A stretch of DNA of 64,000 nucleotides from Methanobacteriota archaeon (GTDB lineage Archaea > Thermoplasmatota > Poseidoniia > Poseidoniales > Poseidoniaceae): assembly GCA_002706065.1 (NCBI GenBank), contig PAJM01000017.1, positions 12,722-76,721 on the forward strand, read 5' to 3'. The notes under the pieces were generated by a model that was not told the DNA's origin, did no database searches, and saw only the letters and a list, made by a program, of their open reading frames with translations. Below, piece after piece: positions 41,411-58,546 of this stretch (position 1 is its first letter; every line of letters begins with the position of its first letter). A program made the translations under genes and the position numbers.

Positions 41411-42610
41411 TCACACCATTTTTGCCCAACCTTTGAGGCTTAGAAACGTAGCCGCAGATTCGGATACGTTTAGACGATCGCCTGCTGAAACATCGTGCTG
41501 GTCCTGTTCGAAACGAAGGACAGCATCGTCGACAATTATTTCCACATCAATCATTTTTTGGTTACCAAAGACAAAAGCTTCACTCAGTGCATCAAATGGA
41601 TCCCCTCCCTCAGCGTCAAGACGGTGGAGAGGGAATTCTGTAACCCTCATTCCAGTTTTCCCATGCAATGAAGTAGGCCAACGTATTTGCCGACGAACAT
41701 CAATAGTGACGACTTCATCGGTTTCACCTGCTGCTCCTAGTACGATTGAGGCATCGGATTTAACAAGATCAAGGAACAACCCTTGGTGTGCCCCTAACCG
41801 TGAAATTTGTCCATTGATTATGGATTGCCGTCGATCATCATGCAGAAACATATCTGCTAATTTTTGAATGCTTGCTGGTCCTTTTCCTGGCTTTCCTTCT
41901 CTTCGGAGATTCTCCTTCAATCCGAGATGCAGTTCTTTCATTATTCTTGGTGCATCTTCATCACCTTGAGCAATGGTGAGAAGTTTGTCAATGAGAGTGG
42001 GTATTTGGTTTCGTATCCGTTTGCTCCAGCCTTTTGCATTGGCATCGCCAAACCGCGTCAGACCACCTTGGACATCAACACCCTCGCCACGTATATGCGA
42101 AACCAACTCCCTTCTGGCTTCAGAATCCAAGTGAAACAACGATGGGTCGCGATAATGGAGATGGAATCCTCGATGACCGGAAAACGTCACTTGCAAGAAA
42201 GATTCATCAAATCCAAATTCAGGTTGAAGAAAATCATTCCAGAGTGCGTGCGCTTGATCTCGAATCACATCCAACATTGCTGGGAAATCACGATCTGTCA
42301 CGCCAGGCAAGTGGTCACCGTCCAAATCAAAAATTAAATCGGCCCCTTGCCACATTTTGTCATCCATTTTTAATTCGTACGGCTTTTGCCAATATGCCGT
42401 TGAATAGAAGCAAGAGTGCATGGCTCGTTCAGAGAGGAATTGACGTAAATCGGTCTCACTTCTGAACGATTTATGACGCAATGGCGGTGCACCACCAAAT
42501 GGAATAAACATCCATTCCCTTTTCGGCATTCTTGGGGGTCTCCAGAATGTAGAATTTTGATAGTAACGGCCAAATTTGTGAGCAAAGCGAGCCCATCCGG
42601 ATGAGGCCAT
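41411..42610 (-). CDS. priS: DNA primase small (catalytic) subunit PriS
   Basis: REWMFIPFGG...MHSCFYSTAYWQ...GADLIFDLDGDHL matches the archaeo-eukaryotic primase catalytic core. Confidence 0.8.
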   Translation of the reverse strand: MASSGWARFAHKFGRYYQNSTFWRPPRMPKREWMFIPFGGAPPLRHKSFRSETDLRQFLSERAMHSCFYSTAYWQKPYELKMDDKMWQGADLIFDLDGDHLPGVTDRDFPAMLDVIRDQAHALWNDFLQPEFGFDESFLQVTFSGHRGFHLHYRDPSLFHLDSEARRELVSHIRGEGVDVQGGLTRFGDANAKGWSKRIRNQIPTLIDKLLTIAQGDEDAPRIMKELHLGLKENLRREGKPGKGPASIQKLADMFLHDDRRQSIINGQISRLGAHQGLFLDLVKSDASIVLGAAGETDEVVTIDVRRQIRWPTSLHGKTGMRVTEFPLHRLDAEGGDPFDALSEAFVFGNQKMIDVEIIVDDAVLRFEQDQHDVSAGDRLNVSESAATFLSLKGWAKMV

Positions 42611-42646
42611 GTAGGCTGCTATGGTTGACAGTTTTTGAACGCAACC

Positions 42647-42856
42647 CTATTCAGTCTTCATGTAGAATTTCTCTTCGGTTTCCCCTACAACGGTGACTGT
42701 ATCTGCGCCGGTATGTTCGACGTAATGTTCCCAGCAGTAGTAGTGTTGATTGTGAACCATAGCCGAACCAAACGTGAGGCGTATACCACACGTATGGCAT
42801 CGTGGCCCAATCTCACCATTCGGGGCTTGTGCGAGTTGGACATGTTCATGTGGCAT
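42647..42856 (-). CDS. Small YHS/TRASH-like metal-binding protein
   Basis: CHTCG-x17-HYYCWEHY resembles the YHS/TRASH Cys-x2-Cys...YYFCSxxC pattern with the last Cys replaced by His. Confidence 0.45.
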   Translation of the reverse strand: MPHEHVQLAQAPNGEIGPRCHTCGIRLTFGSAMVHNQHYYCWEHYVEHTGADTVTVVGETEEKFYMKTE

Positions 42857-42913
42857 CTTCTCACCTGTTTGATGCTAATGGTCTGGGTTCTAAAATGTCT
42901 TGTTGAATTGTAG

Positions 42914-43384
42914 TTATTCCGGCATTGTACTCTTACGTACCCAATCCAACAAGTCCAATGCAACTTCACAAGATTCACTTACTTCGATGTGTTCATCGTC
43001 AAGATATTCCTTCAACACCTCGATCGCTTTAGGGTTGCCAATGGCCCCTAACGCTTCTGCAGCTTCATGGCGGACCATGACATGTTCGTTGGAATCGGAG
43101 AGAATATGAATCAGCGTGGGTATGGCATCGTCCATTTGCATTTGTCCTAATACATAGGCCAGTTCATGTCGTAAAAGAGCACTCTTTGAAGAAAATGCCT
43201 CGCACAGGGCTAAACATGACTCAGATGATCGTATGTTTCTCAGTTTGAACACAGCTCTCATGCGTTGGAACATTTTTTCTTCCTCGTTGAGGAGTGTGGA
43301 GCGTAATGTATCCAACTCGGTGAATTCTGATGCGGGCGCAGGATCTACCGAACCGTATTCACTCACTTCGGGGCGCTGAGTCAC
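42914..43384 (-). CDS. Half-length deoxyhypusine-hydroxylase-like HEAT-repeat protein with two His-Glu motifs (DOHH-like diiron-site half)
   Basis: By my recall of DOHH (not verified against a database): SVDPAP linker, LLRHELAYVLGQMQ and VMVRHEAAEALGAIGNPKAIEVL, then IEVSESCEVALD closely mirror one half of eukaryotic DOHH. Only one half (~156 aa) is present, starting 6 nt after the mqnD stop. Confidence 0.7.
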   Translation of the reverse strand: MTQRPEVSEYGSVDPAPASEFTELDTLRSTLLNEEEKMFQRMRAVFKLRNIRSSESCLALCEAFSSKSALLRHELAYVLGQMQMDDAIPTLIHILSDSNEHVMVRHEAAEALGAIGNPKAIEVLKEYLDDEHIEVSESCEVALDLLDWVRKSTMPE

Positions 43385-43390
43385 AATGTT

Positions 43391-44272
43391 TCACTCCACT
43401 GCGCCAATGAATGATAGACTCTCGACATCAAAGTCCTCTCGAATCATACCTAACTCTTGACCTTCTTTGAGGAATTGTCGTATTGAGGAACGACCTTCTG
43501 GTTTGTAGTCAATGGTGCGGTCGTTGACGTACATCGTTACAAATTTTTGATTTGTCTCATCGTCAATTCCACGACCCCAAGCCTTTGCAAATTCTAGCGC
43601 TTCTTCAGGATGCGTGATTGAATGCTCAATACTCATCTTTGTGTACATTGTAATATCTTCCATTATTTGTTGGCCAAGGTCACGACGCACTACGTTCCCA
43701 CCCAAGGGCATAGGCCAACCGTTGGTGCGTTCATTCCACCAAACACCAAGATCGATGAGGACATTCAAGTCGTGTTCTACATACGTCAGCTGACCTTCGT
43801 GGATGATGAGACCGCATTGATAGGTATCGTCGAGAATTCTTGGAATGATTTCATCAAATGCTACGACTTCAACATCTACATCACCCCATGCCAATCTGAG
43901 CCCAAGATATGCAGATGTTTTCAATCCAGGGATTGCAATCTTCGATAATTTCGCCTCTTCAAGACTCAAACCTTGCTTAGCGACGATCATTGGTCCATAT
44001 CCCTCACCCATTGATGCTCCACAATTCATCAAGGCATAATTCTCTGCGATGTCCGGATATGCATGAATGGATACTGCAGATACCTCAAGGTCACAGTTCA
44101 TTGCACGGTGGTTAAGAGTTTCTATGTCCTGAAGTTCGTGGACAAAATTGTAACCAGGCGTTGGAAACGCGTTCGTCGTCATGGCATGAAACATGAATGC
44201 ATCATCAGGATCTGGTGAGTGTCCGATGCGAACTATGAGGTTGCCATGTTCATCTCGTGGAAGATTCGCCAT
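43391..44272 (-). CDS. mqnD: 1,4-dihydroxy-6-naphthoate synthase MqnD (futalosine pathway)
   Basis: IGHSPDPDDAFMFHAM, IETLNHRAM, GLIIHEGQLTY, LGVWWNERTNGWPMPLGGNVVRRDL, HPEEALEF closely match the MqnD family. Confidence 0.85.
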   Translation of the reverse strand: MANLPRDEHGNLIVRIGHSPDPDDAFMFHAMTTNAFPTPGYNFVHELQDIETLNHRAMNCDLEVSAVSIHAYPDIAENYALMNCGASMGEGYGPMIVAKQGLSLEEAKLSKIAIPGLKTSAYLGLRLAWGDVDVEVVAFDEIIPRILDDTYQCGLIIHEGQLTYVEHDLNVLIDLGVWWNERTNGWPMPLGGNVVRRDLGQQIMEDITMYTKMSIEHSITHPEEALEFAKAWGRGIDDETNQKFVTMYVNDRTIDYKPEGRSSIRQFLKEGQELGMIREDFDVESLSFIGAVE

Positions 44273-44378: not shown

Positions 44379-46637
44379 ATGGTAACAGGAGGTCGAATTC
44401 GAGATGTTCTCATTCTCCTTGTTGTCGTAGGTACTTTGTGCTGTTCTAGCACGGCATCCGCATCCAATGAACTCTTCTTTAATGAGGCGATTGAAGTTGC
44501 CGATGTAGACACTGGTATACGAACCATTGAAGTGGATGCATCTGGAAACGTATTTGCAACATTCGGATCAGTTTTGTACAAACTGTCGGACTCAGGTTCC
44601 GTTCTAGCAGAACGAACATTTGAGAAGGAAATTACGGCTACCGCCATTTCGCCAGATTTTACGAAATTAGCACTCACACTCCGTTCGGGTTCGAGTGGAG
44701 ACGATTCAATCTTTATTTTGTCAACTGGTGATTTGAGTACACAGGTTTCGAGTGATACCACACGTACAAACGCCTTCATCCTTGAGTGGTCACCAAACGG
44801 GGGTGATCTCTATTCAAATGATCCGAACGCAGGCATGATTCAATTGAACCGAGAGACACTTGCAGAAGACGTATCCTATCAAGGCAACCATACAGGAACA
44901 ATGGCTTGTGTGGACATATCCGGCAACAGTGGTGCAGTACTCACTGCAGATGAAAACGGATTGATTCAGTTGTGGAACAACGATGGTGATGTTATCCAAC
45001 ATGAATTTCAGCTCCAGTCATCAATCCTAGATTGTGCTATTGGATACAACGACCAATACTTTTCAGTGTCAACTCCAGAAGATGGGATCCGTAAGTGGAC
45101 ATTTTCAGGATCGGAACTTAAACCGATAGATGTTAATGGAGCGGAGAGGTACCAATTTACCACAAGCGGGGACAAGGTTATCGTTCACAAAAGCACACCT
45201 TCTCAGCACATTCTCGTGTATGATTATGTCAATGAGATATCTGTCAATCAAATCTCAATGTTCCACACGTTTGATGATTATGTGGTGATGTTTGACGGTG
45301 CTGGAACCATTTCCGATATTTTCCTTAATTCAAAGGTAGATTACATCGTGAAATACGGGACCTCAATAGAGCGTGTAGGTGTCGGAGCATCGGGAATCGA
45401 TACAGATGGTGATGGTGTCCCTGATTCTTTGGATGATGATGATGATGGGGACGGAATTGAAGACAATTGGGACCTCAATTGTGCTGACGTTGGAATTGCA
45501 TGCGATCTCCTTCCAGATGAAGATCTTGTTCGTTCCATAAATTTGAACATCAACAAGACCAACTTCATCGTTGAGCAGACATTCACATTCAATAAAGCCA
45601 CGTCAGCAAGCATCCGAGATTTGTCTCGCTTGTCGTTGGATAACGATGTACGATTATCTTCCGATGAAGCACAGCTCTTGGCAAGTACGATTTGTTCGAA
45701 CATTGATCAAGAAGCTGCAAGTACAGGTATAACATCCACCATAACCATCGAAAATGCTTCACTCAACTTCACACACATGGACTGTTCAATCGAACAAGGA
45801 ATGACGCTTGTCCCAACCAACGACAGGACCTCTCACATTCGATATTCGATATCGTTTGTCTATGACATCGAAACAACTCAACCATTGGATGGGACGGCTG
45901 TTGATGTTGAAAATCATCGATTCCCCAGTTCTGGAAGTGTTACTGAACTAAGTGATCAACACCCAATTCGCATAACAATAGGTGGGCCTACGATCATAAC
46001 GCAAGTGTATGTTCCGTGGCACATACAACAATCAGATGTAACGTTTAATCTCGAGTCGGTGAAAGAAGACAATGACAATCTAAATCCAAAAAATATACTG
46101 TCTTCACCTCTGACAATCGGAATCATTCTTGTTGGAATATTTGTTGTTGGATTTGTTGCTCAACGACTCTATGATCTCGTTTCTAAATCAGGTTATGACA
46201 TTGAATTGGATGACGAAGATGATGAAAATGATGCATCGGATGCTGATGAGTTAGACGACGACTACGAAGATGAAGCGTATTATCATGAAGAAGCGTTTGA
46301 AGAGGAGCCTGTTGAAGAAGCGGTGACTGAAACCGTAAAAAGGAGACCTGCGCGACGCAAAACCGTTGGCAAAACGTCGAAGCGCGTCCCCATTGATTCT
46401 TCAGAAGCAACTCAGGCAAAAGAGCTCCTTGAACAATCTTCCAACGAAGTAGTCCGTAAGCGTAGAGCACGACGATCTGAACAGGACCCTGGAACGAGTA
46501 AGCGAAGGAAACTGAGTGATGTTGAACCTAGCGATTCAAGACCGCGTAAACGGCGAGCAGTGCGGCGTGATGTTGCCAATGATGAGGAGATGGATGAGAC
46601 ACTGAAGCGCTTTGTTTCAGAATCACCAGAGGAATGA
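44379..46637 (+). CDS. Large surface protein: signal peptide, beta-propeller-like N-terminal region, TSP3-type Ca-binding repeats, C-terminal TM helix and an acidic then basic cytoplasmic tail
   Basis: Signal LILLVVVGTLCCSSTASA. Repeats DTDGDGVPDSLDDDDDGDGIEDNWD. TM helix ILSSPLTIGIILVGIFVVGFVAQ. Tail RKRRARRSEQ...RPRKRRAVRR. Confidence 0.7.
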   Translation: MVTGGRIRDVLILLVVVGTLCCSSTASASNELFFNEAIEVADVDTGIRTIEVDASGNVFATFGSVLYKLSDSGSVLAERTFEKEITATAISPDFTKLALTLRSGSSGDDSIFILSTGDLSTQVSSDTTRTNAFILEWSPNGGDLYSNDPNAGMIQLNRETLAEDVSYQGNHTGTMACVDISGNSGAVLTADENGLIQLWNNDGDVIQHEFQLQSSILDCAIGYNDQYFSVSTPEDGIRKWTFSGSELKPIDVNGAERYQFTTSGDKVIVHKSTPSQHILVYDYVNEISVNQISMFHTFDDYVVMFDGAGTISDIFLNSKVDYIVKYGTSIERVGVGASGIDTDGDGVPDSLDDDDDGDGIEDNWDLNCADVGIACDLLPDEDLVRSINLNINKTNFIVEQTFTFNKATSASIRDLSRLSLDNDVRLSSDEAQLLASTICSNIDQEAASTGITSTITIENASLNFTHMDCSIEQGMTLVPTNDRTSHIRYSISFVYDIETTQPLDGTAVDVENHRFPSSGSVTELSDQHPIRITIGGPTIITQVYVPWHIQQSDVTFNLESVKEDNDNLNPKNILSSPLTIGIILVGIFVVGFVAQRLYDLVSKSGYDIELDDEDDENDASDADELDDDYEDEAYYHEEAFEEEPVEEAVTETVKRRPARRKTVGKTSKRVPIDSSEATQAKELLEQSSNEVVRKRRARRSEQDPGTSKRRKLSDVEPSDSRPRKRRAVRRDVANDEEMDETLKRFVSESPEE

Positions 46638-47402
46638 GGGCATTTCCTTCAAGCCACAACAATTCGCTAGGAATTGGCGAAGACCGTCCACATGTTCATC
46701 ATCAAGACGATTGAAGACCTCACCAAAGTATCGATTCAAACGTTCCATTGACATGTCTGAATGGAGGTGTGCATGGAGAAGGACCTTTTCACGTGTCAAC
46801 GGGTTTTCTTCGAATGAACTAAGCCGTGAGAGGAGTGCTTGATGTGCTGCTTTAACAGCTTCAAGCGGTGTATCTTTACGTGCAGCAAAGACTCCGAAGA
46901 CCATTGGTTGACCAGTGAGATCGAGCCAAGCTTGCCCCAAGTCAAGCTGGACCAATTCAGGATTGGTTTTTGCTCGATCAAGTGCTCGATCACCAATGAG
47001 TAATGCTCCATCGCATCGTTCAAGCATTGTATCCAAATCAGGACCCATCTCAACAGGTCGAGGGTCGATTCCACGTTGCTTCAGAAGGAATTTGAGCAAA
47101 GCAACGGATGATGATGAATCAGTAGGCAGTGCGATATCTCGCATTTCTTCAAGTGGCCTGTTTCCAAACACGAGAACACTACCAACTTCTCCTTTGGAGC
47201 AAATTCCGATTTCTGGGACGAGTGCAAGTTCATCGCTGTGTTTGGCGTAATCAGCCGCCGGTATTGGTGCAAGGACACAATCTCTGCGTAGCAAGTGACC
47301 AGTAAGCCATGAGGGAGGAGCCGGTAGAACATGGTACGATTCATCCAAACCAACGAACAGTGGATCGCAATTCATGAATGCAACTCGACCAATGGTCTTC
47401 AT
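46623..47402 (-). CDS. mqnA: Chorismate dehydratase MqnA (futalosine pathway)
   Basis: GRVAFMNCDPLFVGL, SSVALLKFLLKQRG, GALLIGDRAL, QPMVFGVFAARKD fit MqnA; start at M9 of the ORF-track frame. Confidence 0.8.
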   Translation of the reverse strand: MKTIGRVAFMNCDPLFVGLDESYHVLPAPPSWLTGHLLRRDCVLAPIPAADYAKHSDELALVPEIGICSKGEVGSVLVFGNRPLEEMRDIALPTDSSSSVALLKFLLKQRGIDPRPVEMGPDLDTMLERCDGALLIGDRALDRAKTNPELVQLDLGQAWLDLTGQPMVFGVFAARKDTPLEAVKAAHQALLSRLSSFEENPLTREKVLLHAHLHSDMSMERLNRYFGEVFNRLDDEHVDGLRQFLANCCGLKEMPSFLW

Positions 47403-47435
47403 CCAACGGGGAGATTGTGTTAACATTGTTTCACC

Positions 47436-48635
47436 TTATGCCATGGGCAGCCGTTTAATGGGCTGTGGGGGACTGTATTCTTCAAATTCCGTGTATGTTG
47501 TGTTGCGTTGGATTGGGACACAGCCAGCGTTTCTCACCAACTTGGATAATTGTTGCCGATCGTGTGTGAGCGGAGTGGTTGAACCTGCCAGATGCATGAT
47601 GGATTCTTGTTGAACTGTACCATCAATGTCATCTGCACCGAATTGGAGTGCGAGTTCAGCCAACTCATCGCCAATGTTCATTCGATATGCTTTGATGTGA
47701 GGTATGCTATCCATCAATATTCTCGAAACCGCAATTACACGCAAAATTTCTTGTCCTGTTGATAATTGTGCCATCGGCAAACGAGTAGAATCTGGTAAAA
47801 ACGGATAGGGGACAAAGCACTGGAATCCGTTCGTTGTTGCTCCCAAGTCCCGAAGTTTGAGGATGTGGTCGACCCGCTGCGATGCTGTTTCAATGGTTCC
47901 AAATAGCATAGTACAATTGCTTGGAAGACCAATTTTGTGCGCAGTGTGATGGATGTCTAAGTATTCCTGGCTGGATTCTTTCCCGTTGCAAATAACGGCT
48001 CGGACATCATCATCAAGAATTTCTGCACCGCCGCCCGGAAGCGATGTGAGACCGGCATCTTTGAGTTGTTGAAGTGTCGATTCAATGCTGAGGTCCGACA
48101 ATTGAGCCAAGTGTTTGACTTCCACTGCAGTTAGTGCTTTAATCGAAAGATGCGGGTGTTCAGCTCGAATCCGTTTGAACAACTCGGCGTAGTGTTGTAC
48201 CGACCAATCAGGATGCAATCCACCAACAGAATGCACTTCAGTGACATACGGCGAGAATTTTGAGAGTTCTTCCAAATACTCTTCAACCGAGAGAGCGTAT
48301 GCATCTTTGGATCTCGGCCCTCGTCGGAACGCACAAAATCTGCAAGCGAGTACGCAGATATTGGTTTGATTAACATGGACATTTGAGTTAAAGTAGGCTC
48401 GATTTCCAAACATTGCTTGTTTGTGTAGGTGTGCAAGCCGCCCGAGTTGGAACAGGTTGGGTTCTGCGAAGAGTTGTAGTCCATCTTCATGACCTAAGCG
48501 TTGGTCTGAGAGAATCTTATCCACGATTGGCTGTAAGGTGCTGGGCCACAGTTCTTGACGAAGACTGTCTTTCAAATCAACTCTCCAATGCGGATTTCGG
48601 TCTGCTAACACGACCGTGGAAACCCACTCAGGCAT
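47436..48635 (-). CDS. MqnC/MqnE-family radical SAM enzyme (cyclic dehypoxanthinyl-futalosine synthase or aminofutalosine synthase)
   Basis: NICVLACRFCAF (CxxxCxxC), GGAEI..; 9-nt gap to mqnA. Confidence 0.8.
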   Translation of the reverse strand: MPEWVSTVVLADRNPHWRVDLKDSLRQELWPSTLQPIVDKILSDQRLGHEDGLQLFAEPNLFQLGRLAHLHKQAMFGNRAYFNSNVHVNQTNICVLACRFCAFRRGPRSKDAYALSVEEYLEELSKFSPYVTEVHSVGGLHPDWSVQHYAELFKRIRAEHPHLSIKALTAVEVKHLAQLSDLSIESTLQQLKDAGLTSLPGGGAEILDDDVRAVICNGKESSQEYLDIHHTAHKIGLPSNCTMLFGTIETASQRVDHILKLRDLGATTNGFQCFVPYPFLPDSTRLPMAQLSTGQEILRVIAVSRILMDSIPHIKAYRMNIGDELAELALQFGADDIDGTVQQESIMHLAGSTTPLTHDRQQLSKLVRNAGCVPIQRNTTYTEFEEYSPPQPIKRLPMA

Positions 48636-53838: not shown

Positions 53839-54675
53839 TTGTTGGTCAGAATGTCTGCATCGATTTCAGAACTTGAAGAACTCGCACGACGTTGTCGAAT
53901 CGAAATTGTCAACATGGTATATCGCGCACAAGCAGGCCATCCAGGTGGTTCACTATCAGAAATTGACCTTATGGCTGCGTTGTATTCGACATCCTTGAGG
54001 GTTCGTCCAGATGAACCTGATTGGCACGACAGAGATCGCTTCATCCTCTCCAAAGGTCATGCATCACCGGGCATGTACGCACTCCTTGCTGAGAAGGGTT
54101 TCATTCAACATTCAGATTTGCACTCATATCGCGTACTTGGAGGGGTATGTCAGGGTCACGTCGACATGAAATGGTGTCCAGGCGTTGATTTTAGTGCTGG
54201 CAGTTTGGGAATGGGTCTCTCATTTGGCATGGGATGTGCTCTTGCTGCCAGACTCGATGGCAGTGATCGACGTGCGTTTGTCATGCTCGGGGATGGTGAG
54301 ATACAAGAAGGGTCAATTTGGGAAGCAGCCATGGCTGCAACTCATCATGAACTCGGAAATTTGAAAGTTATACTCGACAGAAACCGAATCCAAAATGATG
54401 ATTTTTGTCTCGAACAAATGCGAATGTTTGACATTCCCGCAAAATGGAAGGCTTTTGGCTGGAATGTGAAAGAAATCGATGGACACAACATGGAAGAAGT
54501 CGTTGAAGGAATACAATTTCTAGACGAATCAAACGATGGTCCTTCAATATTGATCGCACATACCATCAAAGGGAAAGGTGTTTCTTACATGGAGAACAAT
54601 CCATCCTTCCATGGAGCTGCTCCTAACGAAGAGCAATATGCTCAAGCCATGAAAGAACTCGGGGTGGTTGAATGA
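53839..54675 (+). CDS. Transketolase, N-terminal (TPP-binding) subunit
   Basis: GHPGGSLS, GSLGMGLSFGMGCALA, GDGEIQEGSIWEA. Confidence 0.9.
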   Translation: MLVRMSASISELEELARRCRIEIVNMVYRAQAGHPGGSLSEIDLMAALYSTSLRVRPDEPDWHDRDRFILSKGHASPGMYALLAEKGFIQHSDLHSYRVLGGVCQGHVDMKWCPGVDFSAGSLGMGLSFGMGCALAARLDGSDRRAFVMLGDGEIQEGSIWEAAMAATHHELGNLKVILDRNRIQNDDFCLEQMRMFDIPAKWKAFGWNVKEIDGHNMEEVVEGIQFLDESNDGPSILIAHTIKGKGVSYMENNPSFHGAAPNEEQYAQAMKELGVVE

Positions 54676-55610
54676 GCCGAATGGCAGCGACGCGAGATGG
54701 TTACGGACAGGCTCTGCTTGACCTTGCTGAAAACGACCGAATCGTCGTTCTTGAAGCAGACCTCGGTAAATCAACAAAGTCACTACACTTCCGGAAGGCA
54801 CACCCGGACCGGACTGTCTCTTGTGGCATTGGCGAACAAAACATGCTCCTTGTTGCTGCCGGTATGGCATCGAGCGGATACATTCCTTTTGCGTCAACAT
54901 TTGCAATTTTTACTGAACGAGCATTCGAACAAATGCGCAATGGAGTTGCTCGTCCAAAATTGGCAGTGCATTTGTGCGGATCTCATGGTGGAACCCATAC
55001 TGGAACGGATGGTTCATCTGCTCAATCCATTGAAGATTTAGCAATCTACAGAACCCTTCCAAACGTTACAGTACTGCATCCATGCGATGATGTAAGTACA
55101 CGGTTGTTGACCAAACAACTTGCGTCTTCAACCAATCCCTCTTACATGAGGACCGCCAGAAACAAGACACCAGTTTTGTACGACGACGTTGATGAGAGCA
55201 CCATTCAAATTGGGAAAGGAATTGAACTCCGTAAAGGAAATGATGTTGCCATTATTGCATGTGGAGTCCTCGTTTCTGAAGCACTCAAAGCTGCAGACGT
55301 ATTGAGTCAAGAGGGTGTCGAAGCAACGGTAATTGACATGCACACCATCAAACCTCTCGATGTCAACCTCGTCGACCAGGTTGCTGCACGTTGTGGTGCA
55401 ATCGTGACCGCAGAAGATCACTCTGTAATCGGCGGCCTCGGTGGAGCTGTTGCTGAACATCTATCAGGTTCCTCAAATACTCCACTCGAACGTGTAGGTG
55501 TAAAAGATCGGTTTGGGGAATCAGGGCAAGCAGACGAAATGTTGGAACTCATGGAATTAAGTTCGCCACACATCATAAAGGCTGCACAACGGGCGATTCA
55601 TCGCAAATGA
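54672..55610 (+). CDS. Transketolase, C-terminal (pyrimidine-binding) subunit
   Basis: 4-nt overlap with the N-terminal subunit gene; GSHGGTHTGTDGSSAQSIEDLAIYRTLPN. Confidence 0.9.
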   Translation: MSRMAATRDGYGQALLDLAENDRIVVLEADLGKSTKSLHFRKAHPDRTVSCGIGEQNMLLVAAGMASSGYIPFASTFAIFTERAFEQMRNGVARPKLAVHLCGSHGGTHTGTDGSSAQSIEDLAIYRTLPNVTVLHPCDDVSTRLLTKQLASSTNPSYMRTARNKTPVLYDDVDESTIQIGKGIELRKGNDVAIIACGVLVSEALKAADVLSQEGVEATVIDMHTIKPLDVNLVDQVAARCGAIVTAEDHSVIGGLGGAVAEHLSGSSNTPLERVGVKDRFGESGQADEMLELMELSSPHIIKAAQRAIHRK

Positions 55611-55652
55611 GACGACCATCACATTCATGAAGCGTCAATTGAAGGAACCTCT

Positions 55653-56312
55653 ATGGAGTTCTTCCTTGATACCGCTGATGTTGACGAAATTCGTGAAATT
55701 GCTGCATGGGGAATCCTAGATGGTGTTACAACCAATCCGTCATTGATCAAAAAAAGTGGACGCGATTTCAAAGAAGTCGTTCGCGAAATTGCAGGAATCT
55801 GTTCAGGTCCAATTTCTGCTGAGGTAACAGCAATGGACACAAATGGTATGCTTGAACAAGCACGACAACTGAAATCCGATTTACCCAACAATGTCATTAT
55901 CAAAATTCCGTGTACACCAGAAGGCTTAGCCGCAACAAAAGTTCTCACACAGGAAGGAGTCGATACCAATGTCACCCTCATCTTTTCAGCATCGCAAGCT
56001 TTGATGGCCGCGAAAGCAGGAGCAACCTATGTCTCACCGTTCATTGGGCGAATCGATGACACAGGACATGATGGGATGAATCTGATTGCAGAAATCATGG
56101 AAACGTGGGCACAATACGATATCTCAACAAAAGTCCTCGCTGCGTCAATTCGACATCCCACGCATGTCCTGCAATGTATGCAACTTGGGGCGCATACGGC
56201 CACTATGCCTGCTAAGATTTTCCGCCAACTCATGAAACATCCACTAACGGATAAGGGACTCGAAGGATTCATGAGAGATTGGGCTGAAGTCGAGGCTGCA
56301 GGCAAGGCTTGA
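55653..56312 (+). CDS. Transaldolase (short Fsa/TalC-type)
   Basis: [15 protein letters not shown]...GVTTNPSLI...[10 protein letters not shown]...SPFIGRIDD. Confidence 0.85.
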
Positions 56313-56381
56313 TGATTCTACCTTCGCAAAAGGAGGCTTCATCAATGATGGAGCATCAGCCCGTATCATCGAGGGACAACC

Positions 56382-56957
56382 GTGAGTGATATTCAAGAGC
56401 GCCTGCAAAAACTTCTCGATGGGGAGTTGGATGCTGCGGAAGTTGCTGAAGATCCTGCCCTCGCTTCCTTGGCTAATCGCCTTTATGGTATCAAAATCCA
56501 ACCGGTCCAGCCGAAAAAACTGCGTGATTTTGAAGACCCACTTGCAACACCTTCTGCACCTCTCCCTGCAACCGATATGATGATTGAAGTCATTGGTAAT
56601 GTCGCATTAGAACACCCTCCAGCGCCAGCGGCTGAGTTACCATCTATGGCTGCTGTCCCAACCAAAAAAGGGGCAAATGGAGCCAAGTCATTTGGCGCCC
56701 TTAGTTATCTCTCACTTCTTGGTCTCATCACTGTAGTTGTAAACATGTTCGGATTCTTGCATTCTTTGGTTGGATCGATGTGTACGAATGCATGCGAAAA
56801 TGAAGGCCACACGAAAATGAACCTCCTCGATCTATATCGACTCGACTCATTAGACGGTTGGAGTTTGCCAGTAACCGACGGTGTCGTTGGGATTCCTGAC
56901 ATTGTTGCGATTGTTGGATGCATTGCAATGATTTTCCTTCTTCGTAAGAAGTCCTGA
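56382..56957 (+). CDS. Hypothetical two-TM membrane protein
   Basis: ORF track; hydrophobic helices LSYLSLLGLITVVVNMFGFL and IVAIVGCIAMIFLL. Confidence 0.4.
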   Translation: MSDIQERLQKLLDGELDAAEVAEDPALASLANRLYGIKIQPVQPKKLRDFEDPLATPSAPLPATDMMIEVIGNVALEHPPAPAAELPSMAAVPTKKGANGAKSFGALSYLSLLGLITVVVNMFGFLHSLVGSMCTNACENEGHTKMNLLDLYRLDSLDGWSLPVTDGVVGIPDIVAIVGCIAMIFLLRKKS

Positions 56958-57019
56958 AGCTACTCCAAGAGCAGTATTTCCGCCGTCATCTTGATGAGCA
57001 AGTGTCTTGAGGAACTACC

Positions 57020-58546
57020 ATGAGCAAACCAGCCAAAGCCAAGCGAGGTATTCCGAGCAAAGTTGAAGATTTCAACGCCTGGTATCCATTTATTGTAGAG
57101 GCTGCTGACCTTGTTGACAAACGATATCCAATCAAAGGAATGGACGTTTGGCGCCCATACGGCTGGAAAGCGATGAGGCAAATCGATGCACTTACACACA
57201 CTGAGATGGACCGTACAGGACATGAAGAAGTCAATTTTCCACTGCTTATTCCAGAAGATTTGTTGGAAAAAGAAAATGCATTGGTCGCACGATTAAAACG
57301 AGCACGTGAAGAAGGTGTAGATCCAGACGAACTTCGTGATGAGGTTGAAGAAGCTGGATTTAAGAAAGAAGTTTACTGGGTCAAACATGCTGGTGAAAAT
57401 GAACTGGATATACCGATGTTTCTACGACCGACAAGCGAGACTGCAATGTACACAATGTTTCCACTTTGGATTCGTAGTCACAAGGATTTGCCTCTCAAAG
57501 TCTACCAGATGGTGAACACCTTCCGTTATGAAACCAAACAAACGCGTTCCTTTATTCGAGTACGAGAGATTCATTTCTTTGAAGCACATACTGCTCATGC
57601 AAATGAGGACGATGCAACACAACAAATACAGCAAGATTTGGAGATTGTCGACCGGCTAATGCAACAACTTTGCTTGCCGATCATAAAAGCAAAACGACCG
57701 GTTTGGGATACATTCCCGGGAGCCCACTATACCATCGGAATTGATGCTGTGATGCCAAACGGTCGAACCCTCCAAGTTGCAAGTTGTCATCATTATCTTG
57801 ACCAATGGGCAAAAGCCTTCGATATTACATATGAAAATCTGGAGGCAAAACAACAACATGTCCACCAGACAACATACGGTATGTCTGAGCGATTGCTTGG
57901 TGCTGTTGTCGGGATGCATGGGGATGACTCTGGATTGATAATGCCGCCCGCTATTGCCCCGTGGCAGGTCGTCGTATGTCCGATGATTCGCAAGAATTCA
58001 GATGTTGACACAGTTGCTATTTCCCATGATGTCGCTGAAACACTGCGTGCCGCAGGATTACGTGTCCATGTTGATGATCGTGATCTCCATCCAGGTCAGA
58101 AGTACTACGATTGGGAAATTAAGGGTGTCCCTCTCAGATTAGATATCGGTCCACGTGATGTCGAGCAAGGGACGGCCTTCGCTGCAAAACGAACAGGCGG
58201 TAAGCAACCGCTGCCGATGGATTCAATTGTCGATTCTGTTAATGAAGTGCTCGATGAGATTTCCGATGTGCTTCGCTCACGCTCAACCGAACACATGGAA
58301 CACGTCATTCAGCCATTACCAGAATTTACTGAAGAAGATGGACAATGGCACATGAACGGTGATGTGAAAGATGGGCACATTTACGAGCTACCATTCGCAG
58401 GTTCTGATGCGCATGCAGAAGTTATAGAGCGAACTACGGGGCTTACATTCCTTGGCGACTCCACCGATGATTACGCTGAAGAGCGCCCGTGCCATATGAG
58501 CGGTGTACCAACAAAACGAAGGGTACTACTTGCTAAGACTTATTGA
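57020..58546 (+). CDS. proS: Proline--tRNA ligase (archaeal/eukaryotic type)
   Basis: Class II motifs (FRYETKQTRSFIRVREIHFFEAH), C-terminal Zn-binding domain. Confidence 0.9.
   Translation: MSKPAKAKRGIPSKVEDFNAWYPFIVEAADLVDKRYPIKGMDVWRPYGWKAMRQIDALTHTEMDRTGHEEVNFPLLIPEDLLEKENALVARLKRAREEGVDPDELRDEVEEAGFKKEVYWVKHAGENELDIPMFLRPTSETAMYTMFPLWIRSHKDLPLKVYQMVNTFRYETKQTRSFIRVREIHFFEAHTAHANEDDATQQIQQDLEIVDRLMQQLCLPIIKAKRPVWDTFPGAHYTIGIDAVMPNGRTLQVASCHHYLDQWAKAFDITYENLEAKQQHVHQTTYGMSERLLGAVVGMHGDDSGLIMPPAIAPWQVVVCPMIRKNSDVDTVAISHDVAETLRAAGLRVHVDDRDLHPGQKYYDWEIKGVPLRLDIGPRDVEQGTAFAAKRTGGKQPLPMDSIVDSVNEVLDEISDVLRSRSTEHMEHVIQPLPEFTEEDGQWHMNGDVKDGHIYELPFAGSDAHAEVIERTTGLTFLGDSTDDYAEERPCHMSGVPTKRRVLLAKTY

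What the first reader, a model, noticed from the sequence alone, without database searches (positions are those of the whole stretch)
42647..44272. mqnD - half-DOHH - YHS-like metal-binding protein arranged as a tightly coupled minus-strand unit
The DOHH-like ORF starts 6 nt after the mqnD stop, and a 69-aa YHS/TRASH-like Cys/His protein follows after 57 nt, then priS. The late steps of the futalosine route, after 1,4-dihydroxy-6-naphthoate, are incompletely defined. A diiron hydroxylase-fold protein co-transcribed with mqnD, plus a putative metal-delivery protein, is a candidate for an uncharacterised quinone-modifying oxygenase step. Alternatively the coupling is incidental and the protein serves aIF5A hypusination.
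Basis: inference. Interest (0 to 1): 0.65.

Follow-up and report, generated by a model that had tools for sequence, protein, structure and literature searches.

The report
Half-size deoxyhypusine hydroxylase beside mqnD
Marine Group II archaea encode a one-lobe version of deoxyhypusine hydroxylase, an enzyme the literature says archaea lack; it probably finishes the hypusine modification of translation factor aIF5A and not a vitamin K2 step, and the small Cys/His protein next to it belongs with the primase gene.

Summary
The ORFs and spacings are exactly as described, in a Poseidoniales (Marine Group II) archaeon.

**Half-DOHH (156 aa).** It is a true DOHH relative.
- It aligns to both lobes of human DOHH (E 1e-71, 47-48% identity).
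- It keeps both His-Glu iron motifs and 32 of 34 DOHH signature positions.
- Its AF2 model (pLDDT 90) best matches PDB 4D4Z.
- It has one lobe, so it must dimerise to build a diiron site. This is inferred.

**mqnD adjacency.** mqnD→half-DOHH is kept in all loci examined. In MGIIb the pair is inverted as one unit. However, the whole ~10 kb block is syntenic across the order, and 38% of same-strand gene pairs in this window are ≤10 nt apart.

**The 69-aa protein.**
- It has a CCC[H/C] zinc-finger-like site and gives no YHS/TRASH match.
- In MGIIb it stays upstream of priS, separated from the half-DOHH.
- There it has lost two of its four ligands, so it is not the hydroxylase's obligate metal partner.

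**Most likely reading.** This is a homodimeric aIF5A deoxyhypusine hydroxylase co-transcribed with mqnD for no mechanistic reason. The quinone-oxygenase idea is not excluded but lacks support. Reviews through 2021 state that archaea have no DOHH orthologue, so this is the real interest.

The parts
43391..44272 (-). mqnD (1,4-dihydroxy-6-naphthoate synthase), 293 aa
   Evidence: Pfam PF02621 at 1.4e-62. Best PDB relatives are AF1704 (3e-65) and TTHA1568/MqnD 2czl/3a3u (3e-49).
42914..43384 (-). Half-size (one-lobe) deoxyhypusine hydroxylase homologue, 156 aa, four HEAT repeats
   Evidence: 4D4Z at E 1.3e-71, with both lobes aligned. AF2 pLDDT 90.5 with 8 helices. Foldseek top hit 4d4z at E 3e-10, TMq 0.81, 47-48% identity. 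32/34 DOHH signature positions kept.
43163..43168 (-). His73-Glu74, first His-Glu motif (LLRHELAYVLGQM), aligning with human H56-E57
   Evidence: Invariant in alignment A1. Aligned to human llkHElayclgqm.
43064..43069 (-). His106-Glu107, second His-Glu motif (MVRHEAAEALGAIG), aligning with human H89-E90
   Evidence: Invariant in A1. Aligned to human mvrHEagealgaig.
43334..43351 (-). N-terminal arm motif SVDPAP, matching the inter-lobe linker of two-lobed DOHH
   Evidence: Aligned to the human linker YLSVDPAP. The motif is at the N-terminus of 106/108 half-size proteins, in the linker of 64/87 two-lobed DOHH, and at the N-terminus of 0/87 of those.
43385..43390 (-). 6-nt mqnD stop to half-DOHH start junction, with GGAG overlapping the last mqnD codons
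   Evidence: Sequence. The junction is -8 to +12 nt in 90 loci. It is 0 nt or an 8-nt overlap in MGIIb.
42886..42899 (-). Conserved spacer motif GACATTTTAGAACC, a probable TATA-like internal promoter for p69-priS (inference)
   Evidence: Conserved as ACATTTTAGAACC or CAAGTTCAAAGACT across MGIIa spacers while the flanks vary. Similar T-rich motifs sit at the same distance upstream of MGIIb p64.
42861..42866 (-). Shine-Dalgarno-like AGGTGA before p69
   Evidence: Sequence. An SD-like element lies within 18 nt of the p69 start in 69 of 91 loci.
42647..42856 (-). p69, a small single-site Cys3-His/Cys zinc-finger-like protein found only in Poseidoniales; ligand candidates are C20, C23, C41 and H44
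   Evidence: Homologues only in Poseidoniales. H44 alternates with C. AF2 pLDDT 72. Only weak LIM-like hits. Always directly upstream of priS, also in MGIIb.
41411..42610 (-). priS, DNA primase small subunit
   Evidence: PF01896 at 1.9e-15. NCBIfam PriS models at 3e-58, below their cut-offs.
46623..47426 (-). mqnA (chorismate dehydratase), context
   Evidence: PF02621 at 3.8e-51. PDB 7ahr/2nxo chorismate dehydratase at 7e-26.
47436..48635 (-). mqnE-like radical SAM enzyme (aminofutalosine synthase), context
   Evidence: TIGR03700 at 418 bits against a cut-off of 434.6. MqnC model at 334 bits.

Best explanation
The 156-aa gene encodes one lobe of a deoxyhypusine hydroxylase.

Proposed mechanism.
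- Each subunit is a four-HEAT-repeat solenoid. It carries His73, His106 and Glu107, which align with the residues reported as iron ligands in one lobe of human DOHH, plus Glu74 and Gly80, reported to be needed for substrate binding.
- Two subunits pair, with the SVDPAP N-terminal arm playing the part of the eukaryotic inter-lobe linker. This gives a symmetric diiron site with four His and two Glu.
- The site activates O2 and hydroxylates the deoxyhypusine side chain of aIF5A to hypusine.

Role of the neighbours.
- The gene is co-transcribed and probably translationally coupled with mqnD, because the two sit stop-to-start in a very compact genome. This need not mean they share a pathway.
- p69 is a separate small zinc-finger-type protein that heads the p69-priS unit.

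Shown here: homology, fold, conservation of the ligand positions, single-lobe architecture, gene order and its history.
Inferred: dimerisation, iron binding, the substrate, and the transcription units.
For: Homology and fold.
- Human DOHH at E 1.3e-71, with the query aligned to both lobes.
- AF2 model at pLDDT 90.5, matching 4D4Z at E 3e-10. The next hits, designed alphaRep proteins, are at about 5e-5.
- Both His-Glu motifs and G80 are invariant in 13 diverse family members and are kept in MGIIb.
- 32 of 34 positions conserved in both lobes of two-lobed DOHH are kept.
- Generic HEAT proteins have other residues in place of HE, as seen in the alphaRep alignments.
- The nearest relatives outside the clade are two-lobed ~300-aa DOHH. 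Those that carry labels are eukaryotic.

Selection and copy number.
- The half-DOHH is 60% identical between MGIIa and MGIIb. That is at least as conserved as MqnD (54-63%), MqnE (55%) and PriS (49%).
- Each locus holds one copy.

Weakness of the neighbourhood argument.
- The whole block from mqnE to MetRS is syntenic in 94 MGIIa loci.
- Gaps of <=10 nt are seen in 38% of same-strand pairs.

Substrate availability.
- DHS homologues are reported in all archaeal genomes (PMC5178350).
- A Marine Group II/III gene cluster and a Poseidoniales MAG carry a DHS homologue next to agmatinase and an arginine decarboxylase (PMC10407285).

p69 is decoupled from the hydroxylase.
- In MGIIb it stays upstream of priS while mqnD and the half-DOHH lie inverted on the other strand.
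- There it has lost C23 (to T in 115/117) and H44 (to A in 117/117).
Against: - mqnD is followed directly by the half-DOHH in every locus that extends far enough (93 of 94 MGIIa loci; the remaining one starts at the contig edge; all 6 MGIIb loci). The pair survived an inversion as a unit with a 0-nt gap or an 8-nt overlap. The aIF5A reading does not explain this.
- No dhs or aIF5A gene lies in the window or in about 2 Mb of fetched loci.
- No single-lobe DOHH has been shown to bind iron or to be active.
- Archaea that contain hypusine, such as Sulfolobus, have no DOHH homologue (PMC6105217). Archaeal hydroxylation can therefore use another enzyme.
- Nothing here is experimental.
Confidence: 0.65

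Rival explanations
1. The half-DOHH is a diiron oxygenase acting on a futalosine-pathway intermediate or on the finished naphthoquinone. It is made in fixed ratio with MqnD through translational coupling.
For: - mqnD followed by the half-DOHH is invariant across both Poseidoniales families and is kept through an inversion.
- An SD-like GGAG overlaps the end of mqnD.
- mqnE and mqnA are nearby.
Against: - The known chemistry from 1,4-dihydroxy-6-naphthoate to menaquinone (prenylation, decarboxylation, methylation) needs no hydroxylation (general knowledge).
- The DOHH signature is almost fully kept, including the His-Glu glutamates reported to bind an amine-bearing substrate.
- The half-DOHH was seen only in Poseidoniales. 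All of the best 80 of 231 matching species genomes are Poseidoniales-type loci, whereas mqnD is widespread.
- Unrelated neighbours are equally syntenic, and short gaps are the norm in this genome.
Confidence: 0.08
2. The protein is a DOHH-type hydroxylase with a different amine substrate, for example a free polyamine such as homospermidine, or another protein.
For: - The single-lobe architecture and the symmetric active site differ from the characterised enzyme.
- Marine Group II genomes carry unusual polyamine genes, including a DHS homologue called SpeY (PMC10407285).
- No aIF5A or dhs linkage was found.
Against: - 47-48% identity to human DOHH and 32/34 signature positions argue for an unchanged substrate pocket.
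- Eukaryotic DOHH is described as dedicated to eIF5A (PMC8153317).
Confidence: 0.12
3. p69 is a redox or metal partner of the half-DOHH, at least in MGIIa. In that case hDOHH-p69 is the functional pair.
For: - p69 lies directly downstream of the half-DOHH in 91 of 94 MGIIa loci.
- It has a four-ligand Cys/His site whose fourth ligand swaps between H and C.
- Both genes are confined to Poseidoniales.
Against: - In MGIIb the orthologue is on the other strand from the half-DOHH, still ahead of priS.
- It lacks two of the four ligands there, although the MGIIb half-DOHH keeps its iron motifs.
- A conserved promoter-like motif sits in the hDOHH-p69 spacer.
- There is no match to YHS, TRASH or rubredoxin models.
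Confidence: 0.1
4. The protein is a non-catalytic HEAT-repeat protein, such as a scaffold or chaperone, for example for MqnD.
For: HEAT repeats are usually binding modules. The best NCBIfam hits are lyase-type HEAT proteins, all far below their cut-offs.
Against: All residues at the metal-ligand positions are invariant across the order. This would be unexpected without catalysis.
Confidence: 0.05

Closest known systems
Eukaryotic deoxyhypusine hydroxylase (human DOHH, PDB 4D4Z; yeast Lia1)
   Same: - HEAT-repeat fold.
- Two His-Glu motifs per lobe in the same sequence context (HELAYxLGQM and MVRHEAxEALGAIG).
- 47-48% identity.
- An SVDPAP segment ahead of the lobe.
- 32/34 signature positions.
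   Different: - One lobe of 156 aa, against two lobes of about 300 aa, so a homodimer is needed for a diiron site.
- Found in an archaeon.
- Encoded stop-to-start after mqnD.
- Activity untested.
Prokaryotic PBS-lyase-type HEAT proteins (CpcE, NblB) and designed alphaRep proteins
   Same: Same repeat type (PF03130, PF13646), with weak matches.
   Different: They lack the His-Glu pairs. Scores are far lower: NCBIfam 15-30 bits against cut-offs of 275-600, and Foldseek about 5e-5 against 3e-10 for DOHH.
LIM-type / treble-clef zinc fingers (for p69)
   Same: The C-x2-C-x17-C-x2-[H/C] spacing equals one LIM zinc site. The best, though weak, sequence and fold matches are LIM domains.
   Different: - One site only, where a LIM domain has two.
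- All matches are below threshold.
- The N-terminal MPHEH...APNGEIGPRC segment is peculiar to the family.
- MGIIb orthologues lack two ligands.
YHS / TRASH metal-binding domains
   Same: Small size and a CxxC...C pattern.
   Different: No Pfam hit even at E<=10. The spacing differs from the TRASH pattern C-x2-C-x19-22-C-x3-C, which is recalled from memory.
MqnD of Thermus thermophilus (TTHA1568) and AF1704
   Same: Full-length match at 3e-49 and 3e-65, same Pfam family.
   Different: None noted. This is an ordinary MqnD.

Membership tests
Deoxyhypusine hydroxylase (DOHH) | HEAT-repeat solenoid, four repeats per lobe | tested here: met
   AF2 model with 8 helices at pLDDT 90.5. Foldseek top hit 4D4Z, TMq 0.81.
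Deoxyhypusine hydroxylase (DOHH) | Two His-Glu motifs per lobe at the iron-ligand positions | tested here: met
   H73-E74 and H106-E107 are invariant. They align to the human HE motifs and are kept in MGIIb.
Deoxyhypusine hydroxylase (DOHH) | Sequence similarity well above that of generic HEAT proteins | tested here: met
   E 1.3e-71 against 4D4Z. The next natural (non-designed) protein, a phycocyanobilin lyase subunit, is at 1.6e-4. 32/34 signature positions kept.
Deoxyhypusine hydroxylase (DOHH) | Two lobes (eight HEAT repeats, four His-Glu motifs) in one chain | tested here: not met
   156 aa, a single lobe. 108 family members are 150-166 aa long.
Deoxyhypusine hydroxylase (DOHH) | Binds two irons and forms a peroxo-diiron intermediate | not testable with these tools
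   Needs purified protein. A homodimer model could not be run with the tool as offered.
Deoxyhypusine hydroxylase (DOHH) | Hydroxylates deoxyhypusine on IF5A | not testable with these tools
   Needs an enzyme assay or mass spectrometry of aIF5A.
Deoxyhypusine hydroxylase (DOHH) | Substrate pathway (DHS, IF5A) present in the same organism | not tested
   Neither gene is in the window or the fetched loci. Literature only: PMC5178350 and PMC10407285.
Futalosine-pathway enzyme | Co-occurs with mqn genes across the taxa that use the pathway | tested here: inconclusive
   Always next to mqnD within Poseidoniales. The half-DOHH was seen only in that order: all of the best 80 of 231 matching genomes are Poseidoniales-type loci. 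The other 151 were not shown. mqnD loci of other taxa were not sampled.
YHS / TRASH domain (p69) | Match to the family profile | tested here: not met
   No hit at E<=10. Only a LIM hit at 0.0064, below its cut-off.
YHS / TRASH domain (p69) | Conserved metal-binding cysteines across orthologues | tested here: not met
   MGIIb orthologues have T at C23 (115/117) and A at H44 (117/117).
LIM domain (p69) | Two consecutive zinc sites | tested here: not met
   Only one C-x2-C...C-x2-[H/C] site. The hit covers the second half of the LIM profile only.
MqnD | PF02621 match, with best similarity to characterised MqnD and not to MqnA | tested here: met
   The paralogue at 46623-47426 matches MqnA instead.

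The most novel reading that the evidence does not exclude
The Poseidoniales protein may be a surviving pre-duplication form of DOHH. On this reading, the eukaryotic two-lobed enzyme arose by tandem duplication and fusion of such a half, and the second copy's SVDPAP arm became the inter-lobe linker. The half-size homodimer would then be the first archaeal enzyme known to complete hypusine.

The evidence does not exclude this.
- In the best neighbour-joining tree the archaeal halves fall outside both the N-lobe and the C-lobe clades.
- They are more similar to each lobe (43% and 46%) than the lobes are to each other (38%).

Bootstrap support is weak, and a truncated eukaryotic C-lobe acquired by transfer fits the data nearly as well.
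Probability: 0.2. Interest if true: 0.85.

Novelty: new variant of a known kind. Interest (0 to 1): 0.6.

Why it matters
Papers on hypusine state that no DOHH orthologue exists in archaea and that the archaeal pathway is therefore unsolved (PMC5178350, PMC6105217, PMC8153317). No paper in the searchable library connects DOHH with Marine Group II.

- A clear one-lobe DOHH in the most abundant planktonic archaeal order gives a concrete candidate for archaeal hypusine formation, at least in this lineage.
- It offers a minimal, symmetric version of a diiron oxygenase whose two-lobed form is a drug target.
- It gives a handle on how the eukaryotic enzyme arose, by duplication-fusion or by inter-domain transfer.
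- Automated annotation is split: JGI calls the protein 'deoxyhypusine monooxygenase' and NCBI calls it 'hypothetical protein'. The protein is therefore visible in databases but apparently undiscussed.
- The invariant coupling to mqnD remains an unexplained oddity worth one direct experiment.

Tried and rejected
- **Neighbourhood conservation as a test of function.** All 94 MGIIa loci keep the whole block, so this does not discriminate. The MGIIb loci were the only informative rearrangement.
- **Phylogeny of the halves.**
  - A Biopython neighbour-joining run timed out.
  - A numpy version gave three clean clades, but bootstraps were weak: archaeal clade 165/200, N-lobe clade 51/200, C-lobe clade 30/200.
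  - Lobe-discriminating sites are too few to decide: 3 sites, 1 N-like and 2 C-like.
- **Search for aIF5A.** A search for its hypusine-loop motif found nothing in the window or in the fetched loci.
- **Viral carriers.** None found in IMG/VR.
- **Foldseek against AFDB50.** This was meant to find other prokaryotic relatives, but the library was unavailable.
- **Representative-library search.**
  - Its top 150 hits are dominated by two-lobed and giant HEAT proteins.
  - Other half-size families scoring lower would not have been seen.
- **Two-lobed 247-aa hit P0120.** It was checked as a possible prokaryotic link, but its contig is eukaryotic.
- **Contig L063.** It seemed to show p69-priS without a hydroxylase. 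It is a chimeric join of MGIIb and MGIIa sequence inside mqnD.
- **Late futalosine genes.** None were found among the window genes scanned.
Full report
**What is there.**
- The window comes from a Marine Group II archaeon (order Poseidoniales, MGIIa type). The same 20 kb is found at 98-100% protein identity in Tara Oceans assemblies. The 80 best matching species genomes are Poseidoniaceae/Poseidoniales MAGs, apart from a few bins labelled as bacteria that carry the same archaeal block.
- On the minus strand lie mqnE-like (47436-48635), mqnA (46623-47426), mqnD (43391-44272), a 156-aa HEAT-repeat gene (42914-43384), a 69-aa gene (42647-42856) and priS (41411-42610).
- A 752-aa beta-propeller gene sits on the plus strand between mqnA and mqnD.
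- The gaps are 6, 57 and 36 nt.

**The HEAT-repeat gene is a one-lobe DOHH.**
- phmmer against all PDB sequences gives human deoxyhypusine hydroxylase (4D4Z) at E 1.3e-71. The 156-aa query aligns once to the N-lobe (116 bits) and once to the linker plus C-lobe (125 bits).
- The motifs LLRHELAYVLGQM and MVRHEAAEALGAIG align with the two His-Glu motifs of each human lobe.
- H73, E74, G80, H106 and E107 are invariant in 13 diverse family members and are kept in the MGIIb branch.
- Of 34 positions that are conserved and identical in both lobes of 73 two-lobed DOHH sequences, the archaeal family keeps 32.
- An AlphaFold2 model (pLDDT 90.5, eight helices) matches 4D4Z best: E 3e-10, TM 0.81, 47-48% identity. 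Designed alphaRep proteins follow at about 5e-5.
- The nearest relatives outside the clade are two-lobed proteins of about 300 aa at 45-52% identity. Those that carry labels are eukaryotic, for example Phytophthora, Mallomonas, and a contig carrying an IP3-receptor gene.
- With a single lobe, a diiron site as in the human enzyme requires a homodimer. That step is inferred, not shown.

**Relation to the two eukaryotic lobes.**
- Over the 118 shared columns, the archaeal halves are 43% identical to N-lobes and 46% to C-lobes. N- and C-lobes are only 38% identical to each other.
- The best neighbour-joining tree has three clean clades: archaeal halves (including an MGIIb representative), all N-lobes and all C-lobes. 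Bootstrap support is weak.
- Only three sites discriminate the lobes: one is N-like and two are C-like.
- The motif [ST]xDP[AS]P is at the N-terminus of 106 of 108 half-size proteins. It is in the inter-lobe linker of 64 of 87 two-lobed proteins, and never at their N-terminus.
- Two histories fit: duplication-fusion of such a half, or a truncated C-lobe acquired from a eukaryote. I cannot decide between them.
- Inter-domain exchange of a polyamine gene involving Marine Group II archaea and stramenopile algae has been proposed before (PMC10407285).

**Does the neighbourhood say anything about function?**
- In all 94 MGIIa loci, the half-DOHH follows mqnD directly wherever the contig extends that far (93 of 94). 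The junction is -8 to +12 nt.
- The whole run mqnE, mqnA, mqnD, half-DOHH, p69, priS, two unannotated genes, a hydrolase, a CNNM transporter and MetRS is equally conserved.
- In this 94%-coding window, 14 of 37 same-strand neighbour pairs are within 10 nt and 31 of 37 are within 60 nt. Neither the adjacency nor the spacing is special within MGIIa.
- The informative case is MGIIb (Thalassarchaeaceae), reached through a divergent p69 relative seen on contig L063.
  - The order there is mqnE(+), mqnA(+), half-DOHH(-), mqnD(-), then p64(+), priS(+).
  - The mqnD to half-DOHH pair has been inverted as one unit and is still stop-to-start: TAGATG in L096 and an 8-nt overlap in L098.
  - The p69 orthologue (p64) stayed directly ahead of priS.
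- This supports mqnD and the half-DOHH as one transcription unit, and p69-priS as another.
- It is only modest evidence for a shared function, because a breakpoint between overlapping genes would be disruptive.

**The small protein.**
- p69 has homologues only in Poseidoniales.
- In MGIIa it has C20, C23, C41 and position 44. Position 44 alternates between His and Cys, which marks it as a ligand.
- The spacing C-x2-C-x17-C-x2-[H/C] equals one LIM-type zinc site.
- Pfam gives only a sub-threshold LIM hit and nothing for YHS or TRASH, even at E<=10.
- The AF2 model (pLDDT 72) finds only weak LIM matches.
- In 117 MGIIb orthologues, C23 is Thr (115) and H44 is Ala (117). The MGIIb half-DOHH keeps its iron motifs and is 60% identical to the window protein.
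- A protein that loses its metal site while the hydroxylase stays intact, and that sits on the other strand from it, is not the hydroxylase's obligate metal or electron partner.
- The hDOHH-p69 spacer holds a conserved motif, ACATTTTAGAACC or CAAGTTCAAAGACT, about 30-45 nt before the p69 start, followed by an SD-like GGTGA. T-rich motifs lie at the same distance before MGIIb p64, which must have its own promoter. I read this as an internal promoter for p69-priS. This is an inference.

**Weighing the readings.**
- The quinone-oxygenase idea rests only on the pairing with mqnD.
- Four points count against it.
  - The known route from 1,4-dihydroxy-6-naphthoate to menaquinone needs no hydroxylation (general knowledge).
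  - The protein keeps the DOHH signature, including the glutamates reported to be needed for substrate binding.
  - The half-DOHH was seen only in Poseidoniales, whereas mqnD is widespread.
  - No late futalosine genes were found among the window genes scanned.
- The aIF5A reading explains the sequence conservation and fits an aerobic surface-ocean archaeon. It does not explain the invariant pairing, and no dhs or aIF5A gene is nearby.
- I put the aIF5A hydroxylase reading at about 0.65, another amine substrate at 0.12, the quinone reading at 0.08 and a non-catalytic role at 0.05.

**Novelty.**
- Papers from 2016, 2018 and 2021 state that no DOHH orthologue has been found in archaea.
- Searches combining DOHH or deoxyhypusine with Poseidoniales, Marine Group II or Asgard found no paper describing one.
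- JGI's pipeline already names these proteins 'deoxyhypusine monooxygenase', while NCBI calls them hypothetical.
- I file it as a new variant of a known kind: a single-lobe, presumably homodimeric DOHH in archaea.

**Limits.**
- Only the best 80 of 231 genome matches and the best 150 of 608 strong library matches could be seen. Half-size relatives in other lineages may exist.
- mqnD loci outside Poseidoniales were not sampled.
- No experimental or expression data were available.

Noticed in passing
L063:1-2000: Contig CALGEM010000272.1 carries an MGIIb-type priS and p64 (minus strand) and an MGIIb-type mqnD N-terminus. It then continues as MGIIa-type half-DOHH, p69 and priS. This is most likely a chimeric assembly joined inside the conserved mqnD.
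   Followed up: partly
window 41411-42610: The PriS protein has a single cysteine, so it seems to lack the Cys-rich zinc motif usual in archaeal PriS (this from memory). The zinc-finger-like p69 always sits directly upstream. p69 might be a detached primase accessory module, but its MGIIb orthologues lack two of the four ligands.
   Followed up: no
window 42857-42913, and the same spacer in L001-L094: A 13-14 nt motif (ACATTTTAGAACC or CAAGTTCAAAGACT) is conserved in an otherwise variable spacer about 30-45 nt before the p69 start. It is a probable internal promoter. No T-run terminator follows the half-DOHH gene.
   Followed up: partly
L013 and L046: Two contigs of one MAG (isolate ARS60) each carry the whole mqnD-hDOHH-p69-priS block, at about 80% and 67% identity to the window half-DOHH. 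The bin probably mixes two genera.
   Followed up: no
L012, L027, L079: Records titled Rhodobiaceae bacterium, Salipiger bermudensis and Deltaproteobacteria bacterium carry the archaeal Poseidoniales block, including priS. These are mis-binned or mislabelled contigs.
   Followed up: no
window 44379-46637 (+): A 752-aa beta-propeller protein with an acidic, repeat-rich C-terminal region lies between mqnA and mqnD on the opposite strand, overlapping the end of mqnA by 15 nt. It is absent in Poseidonia-type loci and in MGIIb, where mqnA abuts mqnD or the inverted pair.
   Followed up: no
window 47436-48635: The radical SAM gene scores best as MqnE (418 bits) but falls just under the NCBIfam cut-off (434.6). 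The MqnC model scores 334 bits. No second CofH-type gene was seen among the window genes annotated here.
   Followed up: no
window 42635-42913 (+): A 92-aa ORF runs antisense across p69 and the spacer. It is almost certainly spurious.
   Followed up: no
window 53839-58546, and L095-L100 1-4500: The transketolase halves and ProRS near the mqn genes are also neighbours in MGIIb, but in a different arrangement. The P-type ATPase and OPT transporter between them in MGIIa are missing there. Synteny across the order is high with small local rearrangements.
   Followed up: partly
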